A model generated the notes under the pieces. That model was not told the origin of the DNA, searched no databases, and saw only the letters and a list, made by a program, of their open reading frames with translations. Positions 26,370-61,252 of a stretch of 64,000 bases of DNA are shown piece after piece (within the stretch, counting starts at the first letter, position 1; each line of letters starts with the position of its first letter). The position numbers and the translations under genes were made by a program. The DNA comes from Deltaproteobacteria bacterium (GTDB taxonomy: Bacteria; Desulfobacterota; WTBG01; JAGOGO01), in NCBI GenBank assembly GCA_017996625.1, contig JAGOGO010000002.1, positions 1,017 through 65,016 of the forward strand, written 5' to 3'.

Positions 26370-27128
26370 CTACGTGCGCAGACGCCAGATGAGAAGCCCT
26401 ACACCCAGAGAAATAACGCCGAAGCTGAGACACTTCAGGATAATCTCGTAAGTTCGAATCAGACTTTTTTCCTGCGGTTCAGAACAGTTCCGCCGCCGTT
26501 TGAGTTGCTTATACGGTCGCGAGGTCTTGATTTCAGCCAGACTCAGAATGCCCATGGACACAGCCAGCATGAGCATCTCCAGACTTATCCGGTTTGTCTG
26601 CATCATAAAGCCCATTACTACCGGCAGCGATCCCCAGGAAAACGCAAACCATCCGTCCTTGTGAAACTTTCCAGAAAACCATTCCAGATTATAGGCAAAC
26701 ACAAAAAAGCCTTCCAGCACCGCAACAACCCAGAGGCGGGGAACAAACAAGACCATGTAGTAGATCAGAATGCAATAGGCAGATACAAGAGCACTGATGG
26801 CGAGCGTCCATAGTTGGCCCTTGGAAAACACTTCGCCCCAGGGCTTACTGATTTTACTTCCCAATGCATCCAGGGAGTGAGCAGCAATGCCCAGACCCAG
26901 GATATAGACGATCACTACAGCAACAATCCGGTCCCAAAAAACATGAGGGGCCAACACCGAGCCGATTATGGAAAAGGAGAGTACCATCCCGGTATAGGGC
27001 AAAAACAGCATTCCTACGCCGCACCGGAATCGCACCGAACCAAAAGAAGGAACAAACCATTCGGCCAACCGATCATCAGTTCCGCAAGCACCATTCAGGA
27101 GATTCTCTGTACTGTCTTGTCTCCACAT
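26370..27128 (-). CDS. polytopic integral membrane protein, family unknown
   Basis: 252 aa with about 7 predicted hydrophobic helices. Convergent with the methyltransferase. Confidence 0.4.
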   Translation of the reverse strand: MWRQDSTENLLNGACGTDDRLAEWFVPSFGSVRFRCGVGMLFLPYTGMVLSFSIIGSVLAPHVFWDRIVAVVIVYILGLGIAAHSLDALGSKISKPWGEVFSKGQLWTLAISALVSAYCILIYYMVLFVPRLWVVAVLEGFFVFAYNLEWFSGKFHKDGWFAFSWGSLPVVMGFMMQTNRISLEMLMLAVSMGILSLAEIKTSRPYKQLKRRRNCSEPQEKSLIRTYEIILKCLSFGVISLGVGLLIWRLRT

Positions 27129-27247
27129 GCCGACAATCCTCCCCTTCGCAGAACAGTGAAGACTGTGCAGCTTCGAAGCTTCTGCAGGCTACATATGTAT
27201 CCCTTCACCTGAATGCTTTCGCATCAGTTGACAATACTCAGCGCAGC

Positions 27248-27592
27248 TCATTTCACGGACTCGGTCGGATATCCCTCTTCAATCCACTCATCCCAGCCAC
27301 CCTGCAGAGCAAACACCCTTTCGAATCCTTGTTCGATCAGCTTCTGTGCCGTACCGGCACTGGTGTTTTCATTGGGTCAGGCGCAGTAGAGAACCAGGGT
27401 TTTCTGTCTGGGATAGGTATCCATCCAAGTCCGCACATCATCAGGATTCTCCAGATGCGCGCCCGTGATCCTGGATTCATCCTTGTGACGCCGTACATCA
27501 ATCACTATGGTGTCAGCATCACCGAGGTGACTGCGGAGATCATTCTTATTCATTCGCGGCACCATCATTATCCCTCCTGTATTCCGATACAA
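27248..27592 (-). CDS. single-domain rhodanese-like sulfurtransferase with an in-frame TGA two codons after the active-site Cys (candidate selenoprotein, or a pseudogene)
   Basis: The ORF track stops at 27377 (…KTLVLYCA-TGA). Continuing in the same frame gives PNENTSAGTAQKLIEQGFERVFALQGGWDEWIEEGYPTESVK-TGA (stop 27248-27250). This is a complete rhodanese C-terminal half (..A..L...GF..V..L.GG...W). On the mRNA, a 6 bp hairpin GUGCCG-GUA-CGGCAC begins 16 nt 3' of the UGA. Confidence 0.5.
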
Positions 27593-27703
27593 TGAAATCT
27601 ATCTTGCTCGATTGCAGATTTCATTGTAACCGTGCCGATGGAGAAATGAATACGGCTGAACACGCATTTTCATCAGACACATACAGTAGAAGGAAGCGAT
27701 ACC

Positions 27704-32847: not shown

Positions 32848-35829
32848 TTAGAGCGTCTTTTCGCTTTCCGGCTTCAGTGACGTTATCTTTTTCACCCGTA
32901 TCGATATCGCCCCGAAAAGGTCTTCCACCACTCCGGTAAGCACCAGCGGCCGGGTGAAGCTGATCATCTGACAATACCTCTTGTAGGCTGCGGGGAAAAG
33001 CGTTGCTTCAAACGTAGCAGTCATATCTTCGAAGCTTACAAATTCCATCGGCTCACCGCTTTTCACAAAAACGCTTTTCGCCGCGACAGCCATACCTGCT
33101 ACCACAACGTTCTTTCCTACCTGCTCATGAAGTCTACATGCCGGAACGGGAGCGGGTTTGATCCGATCGATCTGATTACGGAAAAGCTGCAATGGATGAA
33201 AAGAAACCGGAAAGCCGAGTGCTTCAACCTCCTGTCGCTGTTTCACCTCTTCCGGAAGATCCCCGGTGGGAAACTCGGCCAGGTGTGCTTCCGAAAGCGC
33301 TCTGTGATCCTGGCCACTATGAGCGCGAATATACCAGGCCATTCCGATCCGGCCCAGTTTGCTGCTGAGCGAATCAAGGGCGCCGGCTTTGAGCAACAGC
33401 AGCGCATCCGGCTGCGTCGGCCGTACGCGCATCATAAAGTCGACAAAGCTCGTAAACTGCTGCTTCGCACGCTCTTCGAGGATACCTTCCCGGCAGAGCC
33501 ACGAAAGCCCTTTAATGGCAGACAATCCCACACGCAGCAGAGTTCCGCTGCCCGTATATCCATTATCACTTACAGCAACATCCGGAGAGAGTATCGTAAT
33601 TCCCATCCGGACAGCCTCGGAAATATACGCCCGAGGCGCATAAAAGCCTCCACCATTGCTCAGCACTGCGGCGATAAATTCACTTGGAAACCGGCTTTTC
33701 AGATACGCTGCCTTGAAGCTTACCAGAGCATAGCTGGCTGAATGAGGTTTGCAGAATGAATAACCGGAGAAGGAGCTAATCATTTCCCAAAGCGCATCAA
33801 TGACGGACCGTGAAACTCCTCGGCCAGAGGCTCCTCGATAGAACCGTTCTTTCTGATCCGAAACACGATTCCTGATTCGTCCCGTAACGATCCTGCGAAA
33901 CATATCCGCCTCTGCTTCGCTGAAGCCTGCAATCATCATCGCGATCCGGGCAATATCCTCCTGGTACACCATCACGCCAAATGTTTCCGCAAGAATCTCT
34001 TCTATAGCGGGATGAAGCGGCTTCCAGGCGCCCCCCTTAAGACGGCGCACATATTCGAGAATAAACCGGTTGGCAGCCGGCCGGATGATTGAGGAAAGTG
34101 CAATCAGGTGGTGGTAATCGCCCTGGTCTGCCATGCGTAAGAGCCGTCGCATGGCCGGAGACTCAACATAGAACACACCCATGGTTTGGCCGCTGCGAAT
34201 CAACTCCTGGGTTGCATGGTCATGCAACGGGTTGAACTGATCGTAGGAGATACTGATACCGTACTGGTTCTTGATCGCCTCCAGCGTATCCCGGATCACA
34301 GCCAACGTGCGGTTACCGAGCAGGTCCATTTTTACTAATCCGCGATCCTCAGCACCATCCTTGTCCCATTGAATCAAAGGAACACGCTTTGCCGAAACCT
34401 GTACCGGAACGTGACGTGCAAGTGCATCAGGCGTAACGACAATGCCGCCGCAGTGTGTTCCCAGGTGTCGGGGAACACCCTCCAGACGGCTAGCCCAGGC
34501 AAAAATTGAAGGCCACGGCTCGGGAAGCTCAAAGCCGGCAAACAGCGGATGTTCCTGTACCCGATGGACAATTTCGGTAGCCGGTGCATAGCTTGAAAGC
34601 CGGCGCGTTACTTTTCTGATCTCGTGGTCCGGCATCCCGAAGACTTTTGCTACTTCGCATACCGCTGCCCGGGAGCGAAAGCCGGTCACGGTGGCTACCG
34701 CAGCCACATGCTCTTCACCGAAACGTCTGCGCACATACGTAACCACCTGGTCGCGTTCATCCCACGGAAAGTCTACATCGATATCCGGAAGATCACTTCG
34801 ACCCTCGTTGAGGAAGCGGGAAAAGAGCAGATTGTGCTCGATCGGGTCTACATGAGTGATGCCCAGGCAGTAGCTCACCAGTGATGCGGCTGCCGACCCC
34901 CGACCACAGGTAATGGGAAACCTGCTGACGATATCAGCGACAATGAGAAAGTATCCGGCAAAGCCCTTAGCGCAGATCAGGTCAAGCTCCTGGTTCAGAC
35001 GGTCGATAGCCTTCTGACATGGACTTCCGTAGCGTTTTTTGAGGCCTTCGTGACAGTGCACACGTAACGCATCAGCGCTGCATATGCTTCCTTCCCATTC
35101 AGGAAATACTTCACCATCCGTCTCCCACGCTTGCTGAAGAGTCTCGGCGATCCGCACCGTGTTCTCAAGTGCTTCCGGAGCATAGGGAAAATGACGGCTC
35201 ATAGCCTCCGGGTCCTTGAGCCAGGCGTGAGGCAGTGCACATTCATCCGGAGAAATAAGATCGAGGGTGGTATTACGATTGATTGCCCGCAGCATCCGGT
35301 GCAGTTCCCGATCACCAGCATCGAGAAAATATACGGCACCCGTAGCAATTGCCGGAATGCCTAATCGTCGGGCTGCCTTGAACGTTGCCAGGCTGCCCGC
35401 GTCCGGCACCAGTTCGACAAACATGTCTTCGGCATCCTGCAAAGCACTAAGCAGCGACAGATCCGGTGAAAGCAGAACGCAGTTCGAAAATCCCTGTTTG
35501 AGTTCATCAAGGAGTGAAAAAGAACCGGTGTGATGATGCAGCTTCGTCAACAGGCGACACATACATTGATAGCCTTGGGCGTTTTTTGCCAGAAGGACCG
35601 CCCGGCTATCAGAAGTGCATACATGCGCTCCTACCAACGGCATGAGGTCATACTGCTTTGCCGCAGAAAGAAATTCCGGCAGACCGTATAATCCGTTGGT
35701 ATCAGTGAGCGCCAGCGCCTCATAGCCTAACTCCTTCGCCCGGCGGCAGAGAGCGTCCGGTGACGCGGTCCCGGCCATGAACGTGTAATAGGAGTGGACA
35801 TGGAGATGAATAAACCGTTGACCGTGCAT
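32848..35829 (-). CDS. dnaE2: error-prone DNA polymerase III alpha-type subunit (DnaE2/ImuC)
   Basis: 993 aa, shorter than replicative DnaE. PHP domain start FIHLHVHSYYTFMAG, then Pol3 alpha core and OB fold. Sits downstream of imuB and lexA. Confidence 0.8.
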   Translation of the reverse strand: MHGQRFIHLHVHSYYTFMAGTASPDALCRRAKELGYEALALTDTNGLYGLPEFLSAAKQYDLMPLVGAHVCTSDSRAVLLAKNAQGYQCMCRLLTKLHHHTGSFSLLDELKQGFSNCVLLSPDLSLLSALQDAEDMFVELVPDAGSLATFKAARRLGIPAIATGAVYFLDAGDRELHRMLRAINRNTTLDLISPDECALPHAWLKDPEAMSRHFPYAPEALENTVRIAETLQQAWETDGEVFPEWEGSICSADALRVHCHEGLKKRYGSPCQKAIDRLNQELDLICAKGFAGYFLIVADIVSRFPITCGRGSAAASLVSYCLGITHVDPIEHNLLFSRFLNEGRSDLPDIDVDFPWDERDQVVTYVRRRFGEEHVAAVATVTGFRSRAAVCEVAKVFGMPDHEIRKVTRRLSSYAPATEIVHRVQEHPLFAGFELPEPWPSIFAWASRLEGVPRHLGTHCGGIVVTPDALARHVPVQVSAKRVPLIQWDKDGAEDRGLVKMDLLGNRTLAVIRDTLEAIKNQYGISISYDQFNPLHDHATQELIRSGQTMGVFYVESPAMRRLLRMADQGDYHHLIALSSIIRPAANRFILEYVRRLKGGAWKPLHPAIEEILAETFGVMVYQEDIARIAMMIAGFSEAEADMFRRIVTGRIRNRVSDQKERFYRGASGRGVSRSVIDALWEMISSFSGYSFCKPHSASYALVSFKAAYLKSRFPSEFIAAVLSNGGGFYAPRAYISEAVRMGITILSPDVAVSDNGYTGSGTLLRVGLSAIKGLSWLCREGILEERAKQQFTSFVDFMMRVRPTQPDALLLLKAGALDSLSSKLGRIGMAWYIRAHSGQDHRALSEAHLAEFPTGDLPEEVKQRQEVEALGFPVSFHPLQLFRNQIDRIKPAPVPACRLHEQVGKNVVVAGMAVAAKSVFVKSGEPMEFVSFEDMTATFEATLFPAAYKRYCQMISFTRPLVLTGVVEDLFGAISIRVKKITSLKPESEKTL

Positions 35830-35874
35830 ATACTGCGCGTTTACTGTTATCCGTTTACGTGCTGCGCGTTAAAA

Positions 35875-36209
35875 GTTGACCGTTGACCGTTCACCGACTT
35901 AGGCGCAGTGCTGATGCTTTGGCCAAAAGGCGGTATACGTGATAGTCCGTCATGCCCGCGCAGGCGGGCATCCAGGATATACAGATACTTCTATGAGTAC
36001 CTCGCGTTCCTTGAAACAAGAAAGATGATCTTTTACAACTTCATTGCAAATTCTAAATGTGGTGAAGTCGCAAGAGCCCTATTCCTGAAAAGATTTAGCT
36101 TTCGTGCGCTGCTGAAAGCACTGGATGCCCGCCTTCGCGGGCATGACATGCTGGCTCTTGCTGATAGCACCCTTGTCGGTGAACGGTGAACGGACAACGG
36201 TGAACGCAG
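35875..36209. repeat. MITE-like element inserted between imuB and dnaE2: inverted pair of family 1 hairpins (35949-35975 and 36121-36147) flanked by family 4 GGTGAACGG repeats (35875-35898, 36178-36209)
   Basis: GTCATGCCCGCGCAGGCGGGCATCCAG and CTGGATGCCCGCCTTCGCGGGCATGAC are inverted copies. Relative to 3129-3155 the stem carries compensatory T>G and A>C changes that preserve pairing. The internal 93 aa ORF at 35908..36189 is probably not coding. Confidence 0.8.
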
Positions 36210-36214
36210 AACCA

Positions 36215-37381
36215 TTAGCTAATCGTTCTGCCAAACGCCAGCGCTTTCGTCCCGAATCGTTCCCGTATCTGATCCACAGCCGCCATCAGGGCACGGGCTT
36301 TCGCGTGTCCGATATTCTGAGGGAAAAGGGTAAGCTGTGGAAACGGCATCACGAGGCCGGATACGGACACTATTAGCTCCTTGATCCGTACCCGGCGCTT
36401 TCTGATCCGCTCCAGGAGCAGTGCTGCTTTGAAAAAAAGCTGCCAGTCCAGATCATCGTCCTGCTCGCCGAGAACAGATGCTCCACCTGCCTGCATGCCA
36501 TCAAGATAGGCGAGTTTCAGAGTCAATCGTGTCGAAAGCCGATTTCGCTTTCTCAACTCGCGTCCAATCTTTTCACACAAGATGAACAGTTCGGCCTGAA
36601 GCTCATGCCGCCGGTTCTCCCCTTCCGGGAGGGAAGCGGCAGCGGTGATGGATATGGTTTTCTCCGGAGGCACAACCGCCTCGCGATCTTCCCCGCGAGC
36701 AATGCGAGCCAGGGCTTCTCCTTCAGCACCGAACACCCGGCTCAAGAGCAGCGGCGGAATTTCCGCCAGACGACCGATAGTGCACACTCCCAGTTCAGTA
36801 CACAGCAGATCGCAAGTGTCATCTCCCAGCCGGGGGATGGCGTTCAGATGCAAAGGAAAAAGAAACCGCTGCTCCTCTCCCGGCAGCACTGAGCATACAT
36901 CCCGGGGCCGGGAGAGGCTGCCTGCCACACTGCTCACCAGTTTGTTAGCCGCAAGGCCGATCTGCGGCAGCAGGCCGGCAGCAGTCATCACCTCATTACG
37001 TACTTTCACAGCCGCATCTGCACCTGCACCCCATAAAAGCCGCGTCCCGGTGAGATCGAGGAAAAAGGTTCCCCACCCAGAGGGTTCCACCAGAGGCGTA
37101 AACCGCTCCAGGAGCGAAAGCACGACTGACTGCCCGGTACGGTAAAGCGGAATATCCGGCGGCACCAGGAGCAGAGACCGGCATGATTTCCGCGCCTGAG
37201 CAGTGGACATGCCGGTATGGACGCCTTCACGGTGCGCCTCTCTGGAAATCTCCAAGACCTTTCCCTGGGCACTCTGCTCGGCTACAACCACCGGCCGTCC
37301 TCGCAGAGCAGTATCCCGATCTGCCATCAGGCTGATACAGAAATGAGGTATGTGGAAATTGACGATCGACCGATCTGTCAT
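36215..37381 (-). CDS. imuB: ImuB-like Y-family polymerase paralogue
   Basis: 388 aa with Y-family palm/finger-like N-terminus (LLLVPPDIPLYRTGQ...FFLDLTGT). Position between lexA and dnaE2 is the canonical mutagenesis-cassette context. Confidence 0.7.
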   Translation of the reverse strand: MTDRSIVNFHIPHFCISLMADRDTALRGRPVVVAEQSAQGKVLEISREAHREGVHTGMSTAQARKSCRSLLLVPPDIPLYRTGQSVVLSLLERFTPLVEPSGWGTFFLDLTGTRLLWGAGADAAVKVRNEVMTAAGLLPQIGLAANKLVSSVAGSLSRPRDVCSVLPGEEQRFLFPLHLNAIPRLGDDTCDLLCTELGVCTIGRLAEIPPLLLSRVFGAEGEALARIARGEDREAVVPPEKTISITAAASLPEGENRRHELQAELFILCEKIGRELRKRNRLSTRLTLKLAYLDGMQAGGASVLGEQDDDLDWQLFFKAALLLERIRKRRVRIKELIVSVSGLVMPFPQLTLFPQNIGHAKARALMAAVDQIRERFGTKALAFGRTIS

Positions 37382-37523
37382 ACACGAACTATTCGATTTG
37401 GGAAAATGCTGGAATGGGAAAATGGTTAAAGGTCTACAGGCAAGGACACCGTAGGAGATCTTCCATTATTCCAATTCCCTAATTCCCCAATCAACCAATT
37501 TTCCATTTTCTCATCCTTTCGTT

Positions 37524-38126
37524 TCACGGCGTGTATTTCCTATAGAGCCCTACCACCACTCCCACAATGCTCACCCGTTCGGCATCCACTACGAGCGGTA
37601 CGAAGTGTTCATTGGCCGGCCGGAGCGTAACGGTTGCGTCATTCCGGAAGAAGCGTTTTACAGTTGCTTCCCCGTCTACAAGTGCTACTACGGTCTGGCC
37701 GGTTTCCGCATAATCCTGCTTGCGCACGATGAGCACATCGTCCTCACGAATCCCTTCATCAATCATCGACTGCCCTTCTACCGTGAGGGCAAACGTTTCC
37801 TTTCCGGTCAGAAGCCATTCCGGAACATCTATCTCGTCAGCCACTTCCACTGGCTCGATCGGCTTTCCGGCAGCTACACGACCAAAAAGGGGAATGCGTA
37901 CTGCATTGGATTTGAGAGGAATAAGCTCTAAGGCCCGCTTCCGGTTTCCCCAGGGACTCTGCAGACACCCTTTCCGTTCGAGCTGCTTCAGCTGTTTTGC
38001 TACTGCATTGAGTGACTGCACGCCGAGAGCTTCCCGGATTTCTTCGTAGGAAGGCGGCCTTCCGTTCTTATCTATAAAAATCTTAATAAACTGGTAGGTT
38101 TCTTTCTGCTTTGCGGTAAGATACAT
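37524..38126 (-). CDS. lexA: LexA repressor (S24 peptidase)
   Basis: wHTH N-terminus, Ala-Gly cleavage site in RVAAGKPIEP, catalytic Ser (GQSMID) and Lys (TVKRF). Confidence 0.9.
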   Translation of the reverse strand: MYLTAKQKETYQFIKIFIDKNGRPPSYEEIREALGVQSLNAVAKQLKQLERKGCLQSPWGNRKRALELIPLKSNAVRIPLFGRVAAGKPIEPVEVADEIDVPEWLLTGKETFALTVEGQSMIDEGIREDDVLIVRKQDYAETGQTVVALVDGEATVKRFFRNDATVTLRPANEHFVPLVVDAERVSIVGVVVGLYRKYTP

Positions 38127-43863: not shown

Positions 43864-45090
43864 TTATTGCTGCAAGTGACTTACTCCTAATGTCTGAAGT
43901 AAATTCCCCATGAACATCTGGCCGGCAGCCTCGAGGTCTCCAGATAGTGCGAAGGCCATGGTTCTCACTCTAATTTTTTCACCAACCTTTTCATTCATCG
44001 AGGCATCTAGAGGAACCGGATAAATCAGTATTGCTTCCTCACAGTTCTTCATCTCTGCATAGGTCACAACTTGTGTCACATCATGCGCCTCCGGTTTGTG
44101 CTTCGCCTTGTATTTGGTATCGAGGACACAGAGGGCCTTGTCAGTATGAGCATCATACAAAACGAGATCGATCTGAAACGAAAGGTCGTTGTTCTCGCCA
44201 ACCGTAACGGTCTCCTGCTTTCCTAATCTGATGCTCGCGGGCAGATGAGTTCTTAGCCACTCCGCGACAAAGAGTTCATACAGCCTTGCCATATCCACCA
44301 CAAATGGGAGCATTGTCTTATCGCCCGAATGATGTGTCGGACCGCTATGCTCCAGAAAAAAGCGGCAGAGGGCATGCAACGGTCGATAATCTTCATTGAG
44401 CCGGTTATATAACCGTTTGATACAATTCCTAGGGGAAACCGCGTTCAATGATGCAAAGCCGCGAAGTGCATGGAAGGCGCGACGAACTGTCGGCAGCACT
44501 CGCTCAGTGCAGATTCCGCTGCGAGCGATAAGCGCCATAGTCCAGCAGAGGATCTGATTTTCTTCGATGTCAGCAGTATGCTCCTGATAATGACAGTGCA
44601 CCTTAACGTCCCAGGGACTCTTAATACATTGAGGAACATCCACTCTGCCCCTGATAAAAGGGAGTTGATCGTTCTCATTCAAGTATGTTCGATACAAGCC
44701 CTTGCGGCTCCTGTCGAGTATCCGCTGGGCTAAGATATTGGCTAAGCGTTCATAAAACTCCTGGATAGAACTGCAGCCGGTAAGACCTTCGAGGATCTGA
44801 AAACTATTCAGCTGGTAGGCGTACTCGAGCATACGAAAAATGTTGCTCAGTTCTACCTTTGGTTTGAGACTAATACCTAAATCTGGGGTGCAAGGCAAAT
44901 ACCCGACCCATCCCTGAGAACTAAGGAGCCACTGGTTTTCAGTCTTTGGGCTGGGGAAATCGACAGAAACCTTGTCCTTATATTTCTTCCAGATAAGCTC
45001 TCCCTCTTCAGGGGATAGTGCGTTAGAGGGAAACATCTGAGAGACATACTCAGTTAATGAGATAACTCTGCGTCCGCTCTCTTCATTCAC
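43864..45090 (-). CDS. mcrC: McrC subunit of McrBC modification-dependent restriction endonuclease
   Basis: PD-(D/E)xK core VLDTKYK. 408 aa. 4 bp overlap with mcrB upstream. Confidence 0.8.
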   Translation of the reverse strand: MNEESGRRVISLTEYVSQMFPSNALSPEEGELIWKKYKDKVSVDFPSPKTENQWLLSSQGWVGYLPCTPDLGISLKPKVELSNIFRMLEYAYQLNSFQILEGLTGCSSIQEFYERLANILAQRILDRSRKGLYRTYLNENDQLPFIRGRVDVPQCIKSPWDVKVHCHYQEHTADIEENQILCWTMALIARSGICTERVLPTVRRAFHALRGFASLNAVSPRNCIKRLYNRLNEDYRPLHALCRFFLEHSGPTHHSGDKTMLPFVVDMARLYELFVAEWLRTHLPASIRLGKQETVTVGENNDLSFQIDLVLYDAHTDKALCVLDTKYKAKHKPEAHDVTQVVTYAEMKNCEEAILIYPVPLDASMNEKVGEKIRVRTMAFALSGDLEAAGQMFMGNLLQTLGVSHLQQ

Positions 45091-47039
45091 GGGATGATCT
45101 CTTTCCCAATTTTGTTCCAGCTGAATTCCTCTACTCGTTGATGCTGATCAAAAAAGTATTCTTCCAGATAGGGCTCTATTTCCATTCGCCAGATGTCCTC
45201 AAGATGATCTGAAAGCTTTTCCCGGAGAAAGAACGAAATACCGACTTCATAGTGTGGATCGCCAATCTGGTTGTTGAGCTTTTTTAAAACAGCAATAAGC
45301 CCTTCAGGATCAAAACCGTTCTTCTCATGAAAAACACGCAAGACATCATAATTTGGCTGGAGAGCAAGGAAAGCAAACCTGCGGCGAAGGGCGTGATCAA
45401 CTAATGCAATTGACCGGTCAGCGGTATTCATGGTACCGATGATTCGAACATTCTCTGGGATGCGCAGCGAGCCGCCGCTGGCAAGGGGAACCTCTTTATT
45501 GCGATACTCGAGAAGATACATCAGCTCGCCAAAGACTCGTGCCAGATTGGCCCGATTTATTTCATCAATGATCAGAACGCAACGGCCCGTACATTCTGCC
45601 GCCTTCCGGCAGAATTCAAGAAACCTGCCGGGTACCACCGGATAATCGAGCTGCCCGCCGGCATTGGCCTTGGGACGGATTCCCTGCATGAAATCCTCGT
45701 AAGCATAGGCGGGATGAAACTGCACCAGGTCACTGAAGCCATCACCACCGCTGATGAGGTGTCTCGCCAAGTGCTCGGCAATAAATGTTTTGCCGGTGCC
45801 CGGGGGCCCATAGAGAATGGCTTGCCCTTTGCGCTCGATGGCGCGGACCCAGCGCTGTAATGCGTCTTGCGGAAACCCCGTCTTAGCGGCACATTCAGAT
45901 AAAGAATACTTATCAGGTGGTATCTCAGCAGGTGGAAGAAGCGCTTCGAGCCGCTCAAACTCCCCTTTTGTGAGAGGGGTAATGGTCTTCATGAACTTAG
46001 CCTGGAGTTCTGTGGGAATGGGGACGCCGGTATCTGAAATCCGGTAATAGTCTACGGCAACAGTATGCTTGTAGTCTTTCAGTTCGGGCCGGAACCGGTA
46101 TCCGCTCTTCACTATCCCTGCAGCAAGAAGAATCTTTTTCCCCTTGTTGGTAACCAAGTGGTCTCCAGGTTTAAGGTTGATAAAGTTGAAAAGCTGCCGT
46201 GCTGCAATTTTCCGCTGTCCTTCCTTGAGATTCGGGCGTCTAGTACGATACATCTCGATAAGTTCAGCATGTGATTTTCCCGTTAGGTCGAAGGCAAGAG
46301 GGGCGAACCCTACTGCTGCAATCGAGTCTCTCTTGAAATCTCCCCACTCACGTCCCCCTTTACTTGCACCGATCTGCCAGTAAGACCCTTGTGAAGTCTT
46401 AATCAAGGACTCTATGAGATCAACACCTTCCTGCACTTCCGTCCCGTAATGCATCAGATGGTTCAGCTGGTAGAAATCCTGGCTAGGGTCGAGTTGCTTG
46501 AGATGAAGGAAGGCGTCAGATATCAGTCGGTATTTCTGCGCAGTGGAGAGTTTTTGGGTTTTCACATTGATGCCGACCTTCTGGAGAAAGTTCTCGGTCT
46601 TGTTGTTCCAGTTGGGCAGCACATCTGGATATCGAGCCTGAAGAATGGGCGCCCAGAATGACCTGGCGAAGATGGGAATCTTGAATTTCCCCTCGAGGAT
46701 CTTTTCTGCTTTTTCAAAGGGATCATCAGGGGAGTCGATGAGGTATTCAAGATTTCTTTTCACTTTGCTAAGCTGACCAGATATCCTTGGCATGCCAAGC
46801 CGAATATATGCCGGCCCCTCCAGCTTCCTGGAGTACTCGAAAACTTTATCACTCAGATCCTTTTTCGATACTTCGGAAAGGTACTTCTTACTGAGCAGCG
46901 TTGTGCGCAGATCTTCGGCAAGTTGCCGGTGCCGCTCGGCATACTCAGTCCCTTCCTTCGTATCCTGCGCACACCAGGAGGAATAGGAAGCGAGAAGCGT
47001 CTTGAGGTCCTCATCGGAAAGAATAAAAGTACTGCTCAT
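45087..47039 (-). CDS. mcrB: McrB-family AAA+ GTPase subunit with long N-terminal DNA-recognition region
   Basis: Walker A ILYGPPGTGKTF and McrB-specific box RCVLIIDEINRANLARVFGELMYLLEYR. 650 aa. Confidence 0.85.
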   Translation of the reverse strand: MSSTFILSDEDLKTLLASYSSWCAQDTKEGTEYAERHRQLAEDLRTTLLSKKYLSEVSKKDLSDKVFEYSRKLEGPAYIRLGMPRISGQLSKVKRNLEYLIDSPDDPFEKAEKILEGKFKIPIFARSFWAPILQARYPDVLPNWNNKTENFLQKVGINVKTQKLSTAQKYRLISDAFLHLKQLDPSQDFYQLNHLMHYGTEVQEGVDLIESLIKTSQGSYWQIGASKGGREWGDFKRDSIAAVGFAPLAFDLTGKSHAELIEMYRTRRPNLKEGQRKIAARQLFNFINLKPGDHLVTNKGKKILLAAGIVKSGYRFRPELKDYKHTVAVDYYRISDTGVPIPTELQAKFMKTITPLTKGEFERLEALLPPAEIPPDKYSLSECAAKTGFPQDALQRWVRAIERKGQAILYGPPGTGKTFIAEHLARHLISGGDGFSDLVQFHPAYAYEDFMQGIRPKANAGGQLDYPVVPGRFLEFCRKAAECTGRCVLIIDEINRANLARVFGELMYLLEYRNKEVPLASGGSLRIPENVRIIGTMNTADRSIALVDHALRRRFAFLALQPNYDVLRVFHEKNGFDPEGLIAVLKKLNNQIGDPHYEVGISFFLREKLSDHLEDIWRMEIEPYLEEYFFDQHQRVEEFSWNKIGKEIIP

Positions 47040-49576: not shown

Positions 49577-52500
49577 TTATAGGTAATCCTGCCACGTCAC
49601 AATCGACGATTGTGGATCAAGAAAGAAATCAGTATCCTTGAATAGGAAGTAAGGCCAATCCTTTGAAATACTTGACTCAGCTAGTCTATATCCTGCTTGG
49701 TCGTACCAGTCAATGTGATGTTTCTCCTTTACGGGGAGAATGCGCAGTTTCGGTCCCGTGTACGTTGAGAAATCATCGACAAGTGTAACGGGAATTTTCC
49801 GTTGAGTCGGATAGCGTTCGTCTTCTATCGTAGCTCTAGCATCCTTTCTTTCGAATATCCATTTATCAACTAATCTGGGTTCCAGAACAGCATCGCTGAT
49901 TTCGCCGACGTTGTTCCAATACTCCTTGGCTATAACTGCAGCATCTGGGCGCGTGTAGGCTTCTTTCCTTGTCAGGAGATGTGTAGCAATAGGATCAAGC
50001 ATACCCCAGCTTATCATATCCTTATACCATAACACCGACCACGGCAATTCGCATCGCCGCCAGCGTTCCAGAAAATCTCCATCGCCGCCATCATGCTCAA
50101 GAATAGACCCAATGGCTGATCCAAGAGCCCAATTCAATCCATAGATAAAATACTTAGATGCAAAGTCATACCAACGAGAAACACTCTTGCCTGATGGAAT
50201 GCGATCGGATCTATAAGGTGCCATCCACCAGGTCAACACATCTTGCCAAGCCACAGTGGACTTCCCGCTTGTTAGATCACGAACTCCAAAGGCTTCAATC
50301 TGGCTAATCGCCTCAACTAAGGAGGTGATATTGTTGATCCGCTCGGAATCGTTCCAAGTGACGAAGTCCACTGCCTTCGTCATGATGGTCTTGATATTAG
50401 AGAGCTTGGAGATCAGCACCTTTCCATCTCTCGGCGCCAAACCTGTATGATATAAAGCGCGGCGATATTGTTTTTCAGGATAAATGAACTCTGTTATTGC
50501 TTTTCCTCGCTGCAGAAATATCTTTTCTGCAATTGAGTCACTGAAACCCATTTTACAATGAAATGCTAGTGTGTTATGCCACAGCGACCGAAGTGAATCC
50601 TCCATATTTGCTTCGGGATTCAAGCCTTCAAGTTCGACAATACTAGTGAGCAATTGCTGATCAAGCGTATCTAAAGATCTTAAGAGATTCCCTTCCTCGC
50701 CTTGCGCCGAAGAAAATGCAGTCCGTTCAAGCCAAGCGATAAACTGATTGATATCCTTGCTCCCGGATAGGCGCGACCAGAGATTCTCAATCCGAATTGT
50801 CAAAGCATACAACGGAGAGTTTAGTCTTTTGACGTTTTTGACTTGCCGCTCGGTCATGGCGCGGATGATCTTCTCATATGCCTCTTGAGAAATCTTCTGA
50901 GCTTCTCCAAGGGCATTTGTGGAAAGTAGTACAAGTGTTTTACCCTCTGTAGAAACTCCTGGCCTTCCAGCCCGCCCCGCTACGTTAATTATCTCCCTTG
51001 AGGTCACAGGTTGTCTTGAATTCACAGGCTGTCGAAAGCGTAAGAGTGATGGTATCAGAATTGTCTCAAAAGGAAGATTCACGCCTTCAGACAGAGTTGA
51101 GGTTGCAATTACGATATTGATTACATGCTCTTCAATAAGTTCGATGAGAAGGCGAGACATCACCGGCGGCATCTTGCCATGATGAAGGACTATACCCTTC
51201 TGAAGGAGACGGTGTTCACGGGAAATCGGACCGAAGTAATCAGCGCATGAAGCCAAACAGCGAGATAAAAGGGCTTGATCCCTGCTGCGCTTTGGCTGCC
51301 CGAAGAAATCTGGATATTGGATGTCTGCCCAATCATCTGTGAGTAACCTTATGAATGTTTCAGCATATTGTTCAGGGTGCTCGGTTACTGATATAAGAAC
51401 CGAGTGTCTTTTCCCGTCCAAAGGTCGAGCGAAGTGCATGGCCGCCCATAATAGATGTGCCCGCATGCGCTTCTCAACACTATCATCTTTCTTAAAAGCC
51501 CTTATTACCGGCGGATGCGGGGGAAAAGGGTTAGCAACGTAGGGGGCACTTTCCTCCTCATTAACTAATAGACGTTGTCCATCGAGCACATCATATCGAA
51601 TAGTGGTCACTCCATTGTCACTACACCACAGTTGGCCAAAAAGTTGACGAGTACTTCTATAATCTGGGGCAATAGCGCGAGATTCATTCTTTCCTGTCAT
51701 CCAAGCTGACAGAACATCCCGGATATCTGTTGCTACAGCAGACAACGCTACGAATGTGGTATGTGGAGAACATAAGGTTTTCAGCCGAGAGACAAGGCCC
51801 TCCAACCGTAGAGAGCGGCTTTGAGCTGTGGCCAGAGCTTCGTAATCCCCTGTGAATGCAACTGAATGGGCCTCATCAATAATAACGCATGATAGCTTTT
51901 TCAGCATTGTTTGACCTAACAAGCGAAGAAGAGCATCTGCTTTTTCATGCGTCGAAATTAATACGATAGGTTGTTCTGCAATATTGGTTAGGTCCGATGG
52001 GCCAAAATCATTGCCACCATAAAGTGACGTAACTACGACGCTCGTTGCTCTGATGTTGCGCAAAGAGCGTGCAATGTTCGATTCAACCTCACTCGAAAGT
52101 GCTTTTGAGGGAGTGAGATAGAGAATCAATGGGGCGTCATTCTTGATGTGTCGATCTTCATGTCCAAACAAATGACGTAGTATCACCAATTCCGCGACAC
52201 GCGTCTTACCTGAGCCAGTAGGTGTGCAAAGAGCAAAAGAACCTTCTGATGCAATGCCAGCAATACCAGCTTGCTGAGATGGCCAAGTTAGTATCTTTCT
52301 TTCCAGAAATGCGACTCTCGCATAACGGTTTAATGCCTGACGACCGTCATCGGATACCTTTTCTGTGAGAGGTAAGAGCGATGTCCAAAGAGCCTCGTTC
52401 TTAAACTCTCGTGCGATTGCAGCGAAAATAACAGAAAGCAACCAAGAGAACCTATCACTATCGTAACGTAATGCGCTGGCGACCTTCTCAAGAGTCTTTA

Positions 52501-53152
52501 TAGCCGAGTCGATCCGCACCTCATCTCCCCACCTCATCCATGCTGTAAGTACTCCGATCGCGCGTAATAGCTGATTGAGAATCACAATACCTGTCTGATG
52601 TTTTGTTGAATCGCCTTTACCACCATGTCGCCAAAAGTCTAGCAAAAGTCGTTGTGCTCGAAAAAAATCCGCACGAAGAAGAGCTGTAAGAATCTGTGAT
52701 GTCTTATCCGGTAGAGTATGTTCAGACAATATTCCTAAAGCTCTCGCGGGGTACCCAGCTAATTGGTAAATGGATGCAGCAAGGAGTACCACTGGAATTG
52801 GGAAATCGACAGGTGAACTTGTCGCCGCCCACTCAAATATCTCTGCAGCGCGGCGCAGGTACCTACGGCTATCGGACATATCTGGAGCAGCCATTCCAGC
52901 AATCAAAAGCTTTTCACCCTCGGTTAAACGAACAATGAGTTCATCATTTGTCCATGAAGGCAGTCCCTTCGCACCAGCGCGGAGCCTTGTATGTTGGGCA
53001 TAGAGGCGTGCAATACCCCGACTGAGCGATGGTCCGGCCACGCGCTCTGCAAAGTCGTGAATCAAGTCCAAGCTGCCTTCAGCCATATATTTCATTTGGA
53101 GCCATCCATCCTCTCGTAGAGTGAAGAGATGAGGATATGAACGCCAGGGCAA
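49577..53152 (-). CDS. large SF2 DExH helicase, HamB-like (Hachiman-type helicase partner of DUF1837)
   Basis: Motif I CTPTGSGKT, II VIIDEAHS, VI VAGRAGRPG. 1191 aa with long N- and C-terminal extensions. The start overlaps the upstream DUF1837-like gene by 61 bp. The helicase call is secure; the Hachiman assignment is inferred from gene pairing. Confidence 0.5.
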   Translation of the reverse strand: MPWRSYPHLFTLREDGWLQMKYMAEGSLDLIHDFAERVAGPSLSRGIARLYAQHTRLRAGAKGLPSWTNDELIVRLTEGEKLLIAGMAAPDMSDSRRYLRRAAEIFEWAATSSPVDFPIPVVLLAASIYQLAGYPARALGILSEHTLPDKTSQILTALLRADFFRAQRLLLDFWRHGGKGDSTKHQTGIVILNQLLRAIGVLTAWMRWGDEVRIDSAIKTLEKVASALRYDSDRFSWLLSVIFAAIAREFKNEALWTSLLPLTEKVSDDGRQALNRYARVAFLERKILTWPSQQAGIAGIASEGSFALCTPTGSGKTRVAELVILRHLFGHEDRHIKNDAPLILYLTPSKALSSEVESNIARSLRNIRATSVVVTSLYGGNDFGPSDLTNIAEQPIVLISTHEKADALLRLLGQTMLKKLSCVIIDEAHSVAFTGDYEALATAQSRSLRLEGLVSRLKTLCSPHTTFVALSAVATDIRDVLSAWMTGKNESRAIAPDYRSTRQLFGQLWCSDNGVTTIRYDVLDGQRLLVNEEESAPYVANPFPPHPPVIRAFKKDDSVEKRMRAHLLWAAMHFARPLDGKRHSVLISVTEHPEQYAETFIRLLTDDWADIQYPDFFGQPKRSRDQALLSRCLASCADYFGPISREHRLLQKGIVLHHGKMPPVMSRLLIELIEEHVINIVIATSTLSEGVNLPFETILIPSLLRFRQPVNSRQPVTSREIINVAGRAGRPGVSTEGKTLVLLSTNALGEAQKISQEAYEKIIRAMTERQVKNVKRLNSPLYALTIRIENLWSRLSGSKDINQFIAWLERTAFSSAQGEEGNLLRSLDTLDQQLLTSIVELEGLNPEANMEDSLRSLWHNTLAFHCKMGFSDSIAEKIFLQRGKAITEFIYPEKQYRRALYHTGLAPRDGKVLISKLSNIKTIMTKAVDFVTWNDSERINNITSLVEAISQIEAFGVRDLTSGKSTVAWQDVLTWWMAPYRSDRIPSGKSVSRWYDFASKYFIYGLNWALGSAIGSILEHDGGDGDFLERWRRCELPWSVLWYKDMISWGMLDPIATHLLTRKEAYTRPDAAVIAKEYWNNVGEISDAVLEPRLVDKWIFERKDARATIEDERYPTQRKIPVTLVDDFSTYTGPKLRILPVKEKHHIDWYDQAGYRLAESSISKDWPYFLFKDTDFFLDPQSSIVTWQDYL

Positions 53153-55007: not shown

Positions 55008-55934
55008 CTAGATGTTGCTCAATACTCGTTTGCCGTATTTTTGTTCCATCCGTTCGACAAAATTCGGTTCGATAGAGCGGGCAAATGCAAGCATGCCGCG
55101 GAGTGAACTTTTTTCCTGGGGAGTGAGATGTCCCGTTATAAGATGATGTATCTGCGCTCTAATACGGCGCTTCTTTTCTCGGCCAAGTGACACACGGCCT
55201 GCATTAGAGAGAACTAATCCGGTTACCATCCGACGATGAGCTTTTGACCCGAAAATTGTTTTCTTCTGATTAATTTGCAGCTTAGGAAATGGCAGTTGTT
55301 GTATCACTTGAAGAACCCTATTGAGAACTTCTGATCTAGCTGCCTTCTCCATCATGGAAAAAGTCATATCATCGGCATACCTGGTATATGTGATACTACG
55401 TTGGCAACAATAGCTTTCAATTTCACTATCAAACCTATGCATGATGGCGTTGGACAAATAAGGAGAGGATGGAGCACCGACTGAAAGCTGAAGGTTGTGA
55501 ATTCGTTTAGGATACCAAAAAAGAATCCTTACAAGCAACTGTAGATCGAGCTCATCGAGGTCCAGGTTGTTGAGTTCTCTTATGTACTGAATAAAATCAT
55601 CTCCCTTGATTGAAGGAAAGAAATCCACGAAATCAAGCTTCAGCAAATAAGGCTTGGCGACATGAAGTTCAGAGTTGTTTAATATATTCTTTGCCTTTAT
55701 ATAGGCAGTTGCGGACGGATGAATTGGCAATCGTGGAAATAAATTCTCAATAACCCAGTACTGGAGCCTTTTAACCTCCTTAGCTGGTTGGGCTATGGTG
55801 CGCATACCAGTTCCAGATCGCTTTGGTACCTCATAGACCTTATAGCGATAAGGTGCACTTCTAATTAAGTATTCCAAACGTTCCTTTGGCAGAAGTAAAT
55901 CTTTAGACAATTTGGCTAAGAGTGAGACTACCAT
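55008..55934 (-). CDS. retron-type reverse transcriptase
   Basis: All retron RT signatures are present: PKRSGTGMRTIAQPAKEVKRLQYWV, LKLDFVDFFPSI, SVGAPSSPYLSNAIM, YTRYADDMTFS, VTGLVL. 308 aa. Confidence 0.85.
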   Translation of the reverse strand: MVVSLLAKLSKDLLLPKERLEYLIRSAPYRYKVYEVPKRSGTGMRTIAQPAKEVKRLQYWVIENLFPRLPIHPSATAYIKAKNILNNSELHVAKPYLLKLDFVDFFPSIKGDDFIQYIRELNNLDLDELDLQLLVRILFWYPKRIHNLQLSVGAPSSPYLSNAIMHRFDSEIESYCCQRSITYTRYADDMTFSMMEKAARSEVLNRVLQVIQQLPFPKLQINQKKTIFGSKAHRRMVTGLVLSNAGRVSLGREKKRRIRAQIHHLITGHLTPQEKSSLRGMLAFARSIEPNFVERMEQKYGKRVLSNI

Positions 55935-60082: not shown

Positions 60083-61252
60083 CTATTTTAATTCTCGCCG
60101 CTTGATATACTCTGCGAATAAAGGATCGGCGATGCGATACTGACCGCGTCCGATTCGCTCAACTAATCCTTTTTCCGTAAGCCGCTTAAGCACTTCCGCA
60201 GCGTTCTTTACCTTTGCGCTGCGCTTCTCAAGGGTTCGCGGGCTCAGAACGGCATCATTTGTAGCCAGCACTTTGAGCGCTGTCATTTCTTGAACACTGG
60301 CACGCCCCACCATCCCTTCAAATTGCGCATCAGCCAACGCCAGAAGTGTATGGTAAAGTGCGGTTTCCCAATTTTCCATGGAAACCCTGCCTTTGACTTG
60401 CTGATCAAAAAGGGCTTCGCAGAGTGCCTGTACTTCGAAAACATGCCCACGAGTGATATCGAAAATATTTTCTTTCACACCTTTCTCAAAAACGACTCCC
60501 GATTCTCGCAGGGAATCATCGATAAGCCTGAAGGTCTCGGTCTTCGCAAAAGAGCCCAAAGGCCTGCGAGGCATAAACAATCGCCCGAGAGGATGATCCC
60601 GTACCAGATACGGTTTCCATGCTTGCTCGATTGAACTAATGACCATGAGGATTTTTGTTTGTCCAAGAATACGCTCATCAGTAAGCACATTCCTCAAGAG
60701 GGTAAGCTGCTGTCCCTCTGTCGAGAGATTGTGGACATCGTCAATCAATATGACCAATGAGCGCGCTCCATGCCTTTCGGCGTGTTCATGCAGCCGCATC
60801 AAGCCATCGCGCAGTACTAACTGCGGGTCTTGATTCGCAGAGGCATTTCGCCACTGCAACTGAAATCCAAAGCCGAGCACACTCGCACCTGCACCTTCAA
60901 CACGCTTTGCAAAAGGCTCCTTCTTCTCTGGCAGAATAGGCAAATCAGACGCCGTCATATCGAGCACATGGCGAGCGAAATCCGTGAGGCCTTCCTGAGC
61001 GGCAAATGCCCGGGTACTGAAAAGGAGAGCCCACGCTCCCTCGGTTCGAGCGACCAACTTCATCTGCCGGAGAAGAACCGTCTTTCCGATGCCCCATGTC
61101 CCCGTGATAACGTAGTGTTGAAATCTGCCATGGAAAGCGTTGCTCAACCGTTGTTTGAAGAACGCTACTTCCTCATCCCGGCCAATGAAAACTTTTGGGT
61201 CCATGCCGGATCTTGCTGTAAACGGATTGACAAGCATCTTCTCTCCTCTCAT
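60083..61252 (-). CDS. AAA ATPase of the archaeal-ATPase (PF01637-like) type with C-terminal wHTH
   Basis: Walker A VITGTWGIGKTVLLRQ, Walker B LVILIDDVHNL. The C-terminus LTEKGLVERIGRGQYRIADPLF is a wHTH. Confidence 0.55.
   Translation of the reverse strand: MRGEKMLVNPFTARSGMDPKVFIGRDEEVAFFKQRLSNAFHGRFQHYVITGTWGIGKTVLLRQMKLVARTEGAWALLFSTRAFAAQEGLTDFARHVLDMTASDLPILPEKKEPFAKRVEGAGASVLGFGFQLQWRNASANQDPQLVLRDGLMRLHEHAERHGARSLVILIDDVHNLSTEGQQLTLLRNVLTDERILGQTKILMVISSIEQAWKPYLVRDHPLGRLFMPRRPLGSFAKTETFRLIDDSLRESGVVFEKGVKENIFDITRGHVFEVQALCEALFDQQVKGRVSMENWETALYHTLLALADAQFEGMVGRASVQEMTALKVLATNDAVLSPRTLEKRSAKVKNAAEVLKRLTEKGLVERIGRGQYRIADPLFAEYIKRRELK

What the first reader, a model, noticed from the sequence alone, without database searches (positions are those of the whole stretch)
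27248..27592. Rhodanese gene with in-frame UGA next to the catalytic Cys and a downstream hairpin: selenoprotein candidate
The frame continues perfectly through TGA (27377-27379) into a complete rhodanese C-terminal half ending at a second TGA. That gives ...LVLYCA-U-PNENTSAGTAQKLIEQGF... A 6 bp GC-rich hairpin with a GUA loop starts 16 nt after the UGA, within the bacterial SECIS distance range. Rhodanese-related sulfurtransferases are a reported bacterial selenoprotein family. Nothing else in this window indicates Sec machinery; the tRNA at 11.2 kb is tRNA-Ser(CGA), not tRNA-Sec.
Basis: partly seen in the sequence, partly recalled or inferred. Interest (0 to 1): 0.6.

Follow-up and report, generated by a model that had tools for sequence, protein, structure and literature searches.

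The report
Selenocysteine rhodanese gene, known LYCAU family
This is a real gene for a small rhodanese-type protein whose internal UGA "stop" almost certainly encodes selenocysteine; it belongs to a selenoprotein family that is already curated, so it is correct but ordinary, and merely mis-annotated as a 63-residue fragment in public records.

Summary
On the minus strand, an ORF (ATG 27568) runs through TGA 27379-27377 to a second TGA at 27250-27248. A GUGCCG-GUA-CGGCAC hairpin starts 16 nt after the first TGA. The read-through product (106 aa) is a complete single-domain rhodanese. It scores 138 bits (cutoff 115) against NCBIfam NF041203 "rhodanese_LYCAU, rhodanese-related (seleno)protein", which a 2026 review lists as rhodanese form 3, motif CxU.

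Comparative evidence is strong:
- 21 species-level Thermodesulfobacteriota genomes and one metagenome contig keep TGA at this codon, with an intact, conserved downstream half.
- Other relatives carry Cys, Ser or Trp there.
- The 5-bp hairpin core pairs in 23 of 23 sequences, with compensatory synonymous changes and an N-G-(G/U) loop.
- An independent set of 103 metagenome sequences repeats this.
- TGA is otherwise the commonest stop codon in the window.

Not testable here: selA, selB, selD and tRNA-Sec in the source genome.

Side observation: related loci carry double-Sec (UxU) forms and fusions to an eight-haem cytochrome.

The parts
27573..27578 (-). Shine-Dalgarno sequence AGGAGG upstream of the start codon
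   Evidence: Read from the sequence. It lies 4 nt before ATG 27568 and 7 nt before ATG 27565.
27248..27568 (-). Complete coding sequence of the 106-aa rhodanese selenoprotein (Sec at residue 64), including the terminal TGA
   Evidence: Translation. Pfam Rhodanese covers residues 9-97, spanning the TGA, at E = 2.1e-11. NF041203 scores 138.2 bits against a cutoff of 115. The AF2 model has pLDDT 95.8 and a rhodanese fold.
27383..27385 (-). TGC codon of Cys62, the near-invariant 'YC' cysteine of the CxU motif
   Evidence: Invariant in alignment A1. Present in 46 of 51 family members.
27377..27379 (-). In-frame UGA, read as selenocysteine 64
   Evidence: TGA sits at the homologous codon in 21 genomes plus L011. 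Other relatives have Cys, Ser or Trp there. It aligns with the catalytic Cys of GlpE and 6mxv.
27362..27385 (-). Codons of the active-site loop C62-A-U64-P-N-E-N-T69
   Evidence: The AF2 model places strand 57-61, loop 62-67 and the helix from residue 68. Glu67 is invariant in the Sec forms.
27346..27360 (-). SECIS-type hairpin. The conserved core is GUGCC (27360-27356) paired with GGCAC (27350-27346), enclosing a 5-nt loop. In this gene an extra G-C pair leaves a GUA triloop.
   Evidence: The core is paired in 115 of 115 cells across 23 sequences, with 4 double compensatory changes; 0 of 500 shuffles reach the observed covariation. In an independent set, 101 of 103 sequences form all 5 pairs and the loop G is present in 102 of 103.
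27248..27250 (-). Genuine terminator UGA of the gene; I saw no equivalent hairpin in the sequence downstream of it (inspection only, not folded)
   Evidence: TGA is the commonest stop codon in the window, ending 21 of 43 ORFs of at least 100 aa.

Best explanation
The locus is a selenoprotein gene of the 'rhodanese_LYCAU' family.

Recoding (inferred from the established bacterial mechanism). The mRNA is read from ATG 27568. At UGA 27379-27377 the ribosome does not terminate, because a short hairpin begins 16 nt downstream. The hairpin has a 5-6 bp G+C-rich stem and an apical loop carrying G-(G/U). It acts as a bacterial SECIS element that recruits SelB-GTP-Sec-tRNA(Sec). Translation then continues for 42 codons to the true stop at 27250-27248.

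Product. The protein is a 106-aa single-domain rhodanese. It has no signal peptide, so it is presumably cytoplasmic. Its active-site loop reads C62-A-U64-P-N-E-N-T.

Chemistry (inferred, not shown). Sec64 occupies the canonical nucleophile slot. It most likely accepts a sulfane sulfur or selenium atom, or cycles through a selenenylsulfide with Cys62. This would make the protein a sulfur/selenium relay or a small redox protein.

What is shown and what is inferred. Shown: the conserved TGA, the conserved translated downstream half, the conserved and covarying hairpin, and family membership. Inferred: actual Sec insertion in this organism, and the chemistry.
For: Fold and family
- Pfam Rhodanese spans the TGA.
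- NF041203 rhodanese_LYCAU, typed as an equivalog and described as 'rhodanese-related (seleno)protein', scores 138.2 bits with U replaced by C and 131.3 bits with X, against a cutoff of 115.

Conserved TGA
- 14 of the 25 closest single-domain representatives examined are gene calls that end exactly at ...LYC[AST].
- DNA of 21 genomes plus L011 shows TGA there, followed by a conserved in-frame C-terminal half with no extra stops.
- pN/pS is 0.40 downstream of the TGA and 0.32 upstream.

Cys homologues
- Forms with TGT or TGC occur in L028 and L035-L043.
- Across 51 wider family members the position holds C in 20, S in 12 and W in 5.

SECIS
- The hairpin is in the same register in all 23 Sec forms, and it is the minimum-free-energy fold in 20 of them.
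- The core helix is 100% paired, with U-A to C-G and C-G to A-U double changes at synonymous sites.
- In the independent set of 103 sequences, pair 2 is U-A in 74, C-G in 22 and U-G in 5. The loop codon varies between Arg, Ser and Gly but is N-G-(G/U) in 102 of 103.
- Non-Sec forms mostly lack both features.

Not an error and not a different genetic code
- Nine independent assemblies carry identical DNA, and a tenth differs at two distant positions.
- TGA ends 21 of 43 long ORFs, including this gene.

Structure
- The AF2 model has pLDDT 95.8 and TM 0.8-0.86 to solved single-domain rhodaneses.
- U64 aligns with GlpE Cys65 and the 6mxv catalytic Cys.

Lineage
- The public records are labelled Thermodesulfobacteriota or Deltaproteobacteria. 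This is a selenoprotein-rich group (PMC5029168).
Against: - No selA, selB, selD or tRNA-Sec is in the 64-kb window. The rest of the source MAG could not be examined, so the organism's ability to decode Sec is inferred, not shown.
- All available copies of this exact gene are identical, so there is no within-species test of selection.
- The hairpin alone is short and not statistically unusual.
- Three of 11 non-Sec relatives (L028, L035, L039) also form a hairpin in this register. The Ser-Ala...Ala-Gln/Arg/Leu peptide partly predisposes to one.
- No Rfam SECIS family matches.
- Gene neighbourhood is not conserved, so the function has no contextual support.
- Within the wider family Cys62 is more conserved than position 64. 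Which residue is the primary nucleophile is therefore unresolved.
Confidence: 0.9

Rival explanations
1. The gene is a pseudogene or truncated gene. The TGA is a true nonsense codon, only the 63-aa N-terminal fragment is made, and the downstream frame is a decaying remnant.
For: Public annotations call a 63-aa hypothetical protein. No Sec machinery is seen in the window.
Against: The same TGA is kept in 21 other genomes and more than 100 metagenome sequences. Every one has an intact, conserved downstream half, with no extra stops or frameshifts, and pN/pS is 0.40 there against 0.32 upstream. A 63-aa fragment lacks half of the rhodanese fold. The hairpin is maintained by compensatory changes.
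Confidence: 0.03
2. UGA is read through without selenocysteine. This could be near-cognate Trp or Cys insertion, or a reassigned UGA codon as in genetic codes 4 and 25.
For: Some relatives carry Trp (TGG) or Cys at this position. Sec machinery was not found in the window.
Against: TGA is the most frequent stop codon in the window (21 of 43 ORFs) and terminates this very gene, so there is no global reassignment. A position-specific hairpin with an invariant loop G-(G/U), conserved only in the TGA forms, is the signature of SelB-dependent recoding. The family is curated as a selenoprotein family.
Confidence: 0.05
3. The TGA is an assembly or sequencing error and the organism really has a Cys (TGY) codon there.
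For: The source is a metagenome-assembled sequence.
Against: Nine independent assemblies from JGI, ENA and NCBI are identical over 2.7 kb around the gene, and a tenth differs only at two distant positions. Homologues in many other genomes carry the same TGA.
Confidence: 0.01
4. The hairpin is a transcription terminator or attenuator rather than a SECIS element. The pattern scan flags it as terminator-like on the plus strand.
For: One search lists 27346-27360 followed by TGGTGTTTTC as a terminator-like site on the plus strand.
Against: No plus-strand gene ends nearby. The nearest, ending at 26208, is separated from the site by a minus-strand gene. The scan found 2 sites where shuffles give a mean of 1.5, so the hit is at chance level. 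The hairpin keeps a fixed 16-nt distance from the UGA in homologues with unrelated neighbourhoods.
Confidence: 0.01

Closest known systems
NCBIfam NF041203 'rhodanese_LYCAU', rhodanese-related (seleno)protein. [quoted passage not shown]
   Same: The L-Y-C-A-U motif is identical. The domain is a single rhodanese domain. The score is above the curated equivalog cutoff (138 against 115 bits). Sec sits in a CxU arrangement. The lineage is deltaproteobacterial.
   Different: Nothing essential differs. This copy has no signal peptide, whereas many members are exported or lipoproteins. It is annotated in GenBank only as a 63-aa hypothetical protein.
E. coli GlpE (PDB 1gmx) and other single-domain rhodanese sulfurtransferases (PspE, Wolinella Sud 1qxn, Francisella 6mxv)
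   Same: The fold is the same (Foldseek TM 0.8-0.86). There is a six-residue active-site loop before the helix, and Sec64 lies on the catalytic Cys.
   Different: The nucleophile is Sec, not Cys. An extra Cys lies two residues upstream (CxU). The loop is acidic or neutral (P-N-E-N-T, with a conserved Glu) rather than basic, so thiosulfate:cyanide-type chemistry is not assured. Sequence identity is only 20-27%.
Other rhodanese selenoprotein forms listed in PMC13188914: forms 1, 2 and 4 (UxxS, UxxG) and form 5, TsoB (rhodanese/DsbD fusion, UxxxxU)
   Same: Each is a rhodanese domain with Sec in the active-site loop.
   Different: The motifs and families differ. TsoB NF045694 scores only 21.5 bits against a cutoff of 805.
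E. coli fdhF-type bacterial SECIS
   Same: It is a hairpin immediately downstream of the UGA, inside the coding region, with a conserved G-(U/G) in the apical loop (own knowledge of the E. coli element; loop data).
   Different: The conserved stem is shorter (5-6 bp). The spacer is 16 nt, compared with about 11 nt to the minimal E. coli upper stem. No conserved bulged U was identified. SelB binding was not tested.

Membership tests
NCBIfam NF041203 rhodanese_LYCAU (rhodanese-related selenoprotein) | Whole-protein HMM score at or above the curated equivalog cutoff of 115 bits | tested here: met
   138.2 bits with U replaced by C and 131.3 bits with U replaced by X. The 63-aa fragment alone scores 62.2 bits.
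NCBIfam NF041203 rhodanese_LYCAU (rhodanese-related selenoprotein) | L-Y-C-A-U signature, with Sec two residues after the conserved Cys (CxU) | tested here: met
   Residues 60-64 are L-Y-C-A-U. The review lists the family motif as CxU.
Bacterial selenoprotein gene (general criteria) | In-frame UGA conserved at the same codon in orthologues, with a conserved translated region downstream | tested here: met
   21 genomes plus L011 show this. pN/pS downstream is 0.40 and no extra stops occur. 14 truncated gene calls end at this codon.
Bacterial selenoprotein gene (general criteria) | Homologues carrying Cys at the Sec position | tested here: met
   L028 and L035-L043 carry TGT or TGC. 20 of 51 wider family members have Cys.
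Bacterial selenoprotein gene (general criteria) | SECIS stem-loop shortly downstream of the UGA, with a conserved G in the apical loop and support from covariation | tested here: met
   The stem starts 16 nt after the UGA. 115 of 115 core cells are paired and 4 cells show double compensatory changes. In the independent set, 101 of 103 sequences pair fully and the loop is N-G-(G/U) in 102 of 103.
Bacterial selenoprotein gene (general criteria) | selA, selB, selD and tRNA-Sec (selC) present in the same genome | not testable with these tools
   These are absent from the 64-kb window. The source contig is barely longer than the window, and the other contigs of GCA_035340455.1 and GCA_035342615.1 could not be retrieved.
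Bacterial selenoprotein gene (general criteria) | Selenium physically present in the protein (75Se labelling or mass spectrometry) | not testable with these tools
   This needs an experiment.
Rhodanese homology domain (Pfam PF00581) | Profile match and alpha/beta rhodanese fold | tested here: met
   Pfam scores 44.6 bits against a cutoff of 22.2. The AF2 model has pLDDT 95.8. Foldseek gives TM 0.8-0.86 to 3fnj, 3ilm, 6mxv and 1gmx.
Rhodanese homology domain (Pfam PF00581) | Catalytic nucleophile at the start of a six-residue loop preceding the helix | tested here: inconclusive
   Sec64 aligns with the catalytic Cys of GlpE and 6mxv, and U-P-N-E-N-T has the canonical length. However, the model ends the strand at Y61, so both C62 and U64 lie in the loop, and C62 is the more conserved residue.
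Rhodanese homology domain (Pfam PF00581) | Sulfurtransferase activity | not testable with these tools
   This needs a biochemical assay.
Rfam SECIS families | Covariance-model match | tested here: not met
   No SECIS family matched at E up to 10 on 27240-27600. From my own knowledge, Rfam's SECIS models were built from other selenoprotein families, so the miss carries little weight against a SECIS function.

The most novel reading that the evidence does not exclude
The CxU pair may not be a classical sulfurtransferase site. It may instead be a selenenylsulfide redox or chalcogen-relay centre that works with haem electron-transfer partners. In related loci the same LYCAU domain occurs with two selenocysteines (Y-U-A-U). 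In about 40% of those sequences it is the exported N-terminal domain of an uncharacterised HAO-like eight-haem cytochrome c. The 2026 review lists this family with a single Sec and does not mention UxU. I found no paper on a rhodanese-octahaem fusion. If so, the window's stand-alone cytoplasmic protein would be the free form of the substrate-handling module of an undescribed selenium-dependent multihaem enzyme.
Probability: 0.25. Interest if true: 0.5.

Novelty: already known. Interest (0 to 1): 0.2.

Why it matters
For the window itself the value is mainly corrective. A real 106-aa selenoprotein is recorded in GenBank and metagenome gene calls as a 63-aa hypothetical protein (HNR13013.1, HNU70627.1, HOC38189.1, MBP7321412.1). 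It also shows that the source organism very probably has the selenocysteine trait.

Biologically it adds one more member to a known but biochemically uncharacterised family. The comparative data gathered here define the family's SECIS: a 16-nt spacer, a 5-bp stem and an N-G-(G/U)-N-N loop. They also point to double-Sec forms and octahaem-fusion relatives. Those relatives could make the family's function experimentally approachable.

Tried and rejected
- Word-indexed protein search with the read-through protein found only the truncated protein itself.
It accepted the version with X.
- The first alignment (A1) was too divergent for the search for related loci. A smaller alignment (A2) worked.
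- Within-species variation for a selection test: the ten copies are essentially identical.
- Conserved gene neighbourhood: none was found between the window and the other loci, or among those loci except in close pairs. The neighbours here are a 252-aa membrane protein with no family hit, DUF4112, Pmp3 and a UbiE-like/GG-reductase-like pair, and they give no functional link.
- Second selenoprotein gene in the window, as a proxy for the Sec trait: no credible TGA read-through candidate was found.
- tblastn with E. coli SelA, SelB and SelD against the window and about 0.8 Mb of held loci gave nothing. ARAGORN on the related loci found no tRNA-Sec.
- The Rfam scan at a lax threshold gave only chance hits.
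- Literature search for 'LYCAU' returned only unrelated words.
- MccSep/ExtKL (PMC13510729) was considered as the identity of the haem-fused relatives and rejected. It has five haems, a different Sec context and no rhodanese domain.
- The plus-strand terminator reading of the hairpin was rejected.
- I ran no further search on fishing for this MAG's SelD. Hits cannot be tied to an assembly without many further look-ups.

Full report
**Observation.** The gene lies on the minus strand.
- An AGGAGG sequence at 27578-27573 precedes ATG 27568 (a second ATG is at 27565).
- The frame reads MMVPRMNK...TLVLYCA, then TGA at 27379-27377.
- It continues without interruption: PNENTSAGTAQKLIEQGFERVFALQGGWDEWIEEGYPTESVK. 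It ends at TGA 27250-27248.
- Sixteen nucleotides after the first TGA lies GUGCCG-GUA-CGGCAC (27360-27346), with a local fold energy of -9.5 kcal/mol.

On its own the hairpin is not statistically remarkable: z = -1.36, and 19 of 200 shuffles fold as well.

**Not an artefact, not a different code.** The 63-aa gene call is encoded on at least 21 contigs from JGI, ENA, Logan and NCBI assemblies.
- Of the ten loci fetched, nine are identical to the window over 2.7 kb around the gene. The tenth differs only at two distant positions.
- In the window, TGA ends 21 of 43 ORFs of at least 100 aa (TAA 14, TAG 8). This includes the gene itself.
- UGA is therefore a normal stop in this organism, and any recoding must be local.

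**What the protein is.** With the TGA read through, Pfam Rhodanese matches residues 9-97, across the TGA (E = 2.1e-11).
- An AlphaFold2 model built on 51 relatives has mean pLDDT 95.8.
- The model superposes on solved single-domain rhodaneses with TM 0.8-0.86: 3fnj, 3ilm, 6mxv, 3nhv and 1gmx.
- Against NCBIfam the protein scores 138.2 bits (131.3 with X at the Sec position). The match is NF041203.1 'rhodanese_LYCAU', an equivalog model described as 'rhodanese-related (seleno)protein', with a cutoff of 115 bits.
- The family name is literally the motif found here, L60-Y-C-A-U64.
[quoted passage not shown] It credits Zhang & Gladyshev 2005 (PMC13188914).
- The kind is therefore already known.

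**Comparative evidence gathered independently of that curation.**
- A full HMMER search of 1.84 billion representatives returned 92 proteins at E up to 1e-10. Of the 25 closest single-domain relatives examined, 14 are gene calls that stop exactly after ...LYC[A/S/T].
- DNA from one of these (L011) shows TGA followed by PNENTSAGAAQKL...GGWKEW...YPTE.
- A scan of one genome per species gave 32 loci. In 21 of them, all MAGs labelled Thermodesulfobacteriota or as deltaproteobacterial groups apart from one labelled Bacteriovoracaceae, the homologous codon is TGA and the downstream half is intact and conserved.
- Relatives from Syntrophorhabdales, Verrucomicrobia, Myxococcota, Planctomycetes, Acidobacteria and Spirochaetes have TGT or TGC. 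One has TCA.
- Across 23 Sec forms, pN/pS is 0.40 for the 39 codons after the UGA and 0.32 for 25 codons before it. There is not a single additional stop. The downstream half is therefore translated.

**The hairpin.**
- The hairpin sequence is in the same register in all 23 Sec forms. It is the minimum-free-energy fold in 20 of them.
- The 5-bp core (GUGCC/GGCAC) is paired in 115 of 115 cells.
- There are three U-A to C-G double changes, one C-G to A-U double change and one G-U. Most of these fall at synonymous third positions. None of 500 shuffles reaches the observed covariation score.
- Loop position 2 is an invariant G and position 3 is G or U. The codon that supplies them nevertheless changes between Gly, Arg, Trp and Ser. 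The constraint is therefore on the RNA, not the protein.

An independent test came from a metagenome scan whose pattern fixed only part of the 5' arm.
- Of 103 distinct sequences, 101 form all five pairs.
- Pair 2 is U-A in 74, C-G in 22 and U-G in 5.
- The loop is N-G-(G/U) in 102 of 103.

Non-Sec relatives mostly lack the hairpin and the loop rule, although L028, L035 and L039 do fold in this register. This is what a bacterial SECIS element looks like. Rfam has no matching model, which is unsurprising for such a short, family-specific element.

**Which residue is catalytic.**
- Pairwise and profile alignments to GlpE (1gmx) and 6mxv place the Sec on the catalytic Cys. U-P-N-E-N-T has the canonical six-residue loop length before the helix.
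- The model ends the central strand at Y61 and starts the helix at N68, so both C62 and U64 lie in the loop.
- In 51 family members C62 is nearly invariant (46 of 51). Position 64 is C (20), S (12), W (5), D (3) or other residues.
- My conclusion is that Sec sits in the canonical nucleophile slot, and Cys62 is a family-specific and probably indispensable partner (CxU).
- Ser (TCA) and Trp (TGG) are single-base neighbours of TGA. This is consistent with repeated loss of Sec (inference).

**Mechanism.** Recoding by SelB and Sec-tRNA(Sec) at the hairpin is inferred from the established bacterial pathway. The protein has no signal peptide, because a stop codon lies 13 codons upstream of the ATG in frame. 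It is therefore presumably cytoplasmic, unlike many exported relatives. The chemistry is inferred only. Candidates are sulfane-sulfur or selenium transfer on Sec64, or a C62-U64 selenenylsulfide redox cycle. The loop is acidic or neutral, with a conserved Glu67, rather than basic as in thiosulfate sulfurtransferases. Gene neighbourhood gives no help.

**What could not be tested.** The window holds only tRNA-Ser(CGA) and tRNA-Leu(CAA) and no selA, selB or selD. The source contig is barely longer than the window, and the other contigs of the MAG are out of reach. The Sec trait of this organism therefore rests on two things. One is the maintained UGA, SECIS and downstream ORF. The other is membership of a selenoprotein-rich lineage (PMC5029168).

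**Side observations in related loci.**
- Four genomes (L021, L030, L032, L034) and at least 120 metagenome stretches carry TGA at both positions of the motif, Y-U-A-U. The stretches give 117 distinct protein sequences.
- About 40% of these (49 of 120), and five of the 21 genome loci (L027, L029, L031 with CxU; L030, L032 with UxU), are exported proteins of about 540 aa. In these the LYCAU domain precedes a domain with exactly eight CxxCH motifs. That domain is weakly HAO- or hydrazine-dehydrogenase-like.
- The review lists the family with one Sec and never mentions UxU. A literature search for rhodanese, octaheme and selenocysteine found nothing on such a fusion.
- MccSep/ExtKL is a different, five-haem selenoprotein.

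**Verdict.** It is a member of an already curated selenoprotein family, so novelty and interest are low. The useful outputs are a corrected gene model, a defined SECIS consensus for the family, and the pointer to the double-Sec and octahaem-fused relatives.

Noticed in passing
L021, L030, L032, L034 (genomes); L044-L163 (metagenome contigs): Double-selenocysteine forms of the same rhodanese family. TGA replaces the conserved Cys codon as well (TAY TGA GCN TGA, giving Y-U-A-U). There are at least 120 metagenome stretches with 117 distinct sequences, and they carry the same downstream hairpin. The 2026 review lists this family with a single Sec and never mentions UxU.
   Followed up: partly
L048 3306-4913 (+), L066 4125-5729 (-), L029 2896-4521 (+), L092 3961-5637 (+); also L027, L030, L031, L032: The LYCAU rhodanese domain (CxU or UxU), behind a signal peptide, is fused to a roughly 390-aa domain with exactly eight CxxCH haem motifs. 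Pfam matches Multi-haem_cyto. NCBIfam matches hydrazine dehydrogenase/HAO only weakly, at 92-97 bits against a cutoff of 900. I found no description of such a fusion.
   Followed up: partly
L034, codon 23 of the tblastn match (638-898): An in-frame TAG falls where relatives have Glu (GAVW*DPENV), in a UxU-type gene. It could be a sequencing error, a pseudogene or something else.
   Followed up: no
L012 3637-5363 and L017 3441-5173: In two related genomes an IscU/NifU-like gene and a cysteine desulfurase gene lie immediately downstream of the Sec-rhodanese. This may hint at a sulfur or selenium relay, but it is seen only in this closely related pair.
   Followed up: no
window 43867-63999: The right third of the window looks like a defence or mobile island: McrBC plus an AAA_5 ATPase (43867-47039), a 1191-aa DEAD/ResIII helicase (49580-53152), a reverse transcriptase (55011-55934), a DUF499 protein (57201-59972), an AAA_16/STAND-like ATPase (60086-61252) and a possible D12-type methyltransferase (62620-63999).
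   Followed up: partly
window 32848-38126: An SOS mutagenesis cassette on the minus strand: LexA (37524-38126), a Y-family polymerase-like IMS/ImuB gene (36215-37381) and a DnaE2-type error-prone polymerase (32848-35829).
   Followed up: no
window 26370-27128 (-): A 252-aa multi-pass membrane protein with no Pfam or NCBIfam match starts 119 nt downstream of the rhodanese on the same strand. No predicted terminator lies between them, so the two may be co-transcribed. It is not found next to the rhodanese in other genomes.
   Followed up: partly
P0003, P0008, P0017, P0010 and L033: Close relatives carry Ser (TCA in L033) or Trp at the Sec position. Both are single-base neighbours of TGA, which suggests repeated Sec loss by point mutation rather than conversion to Cys only.
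   Followed up: no
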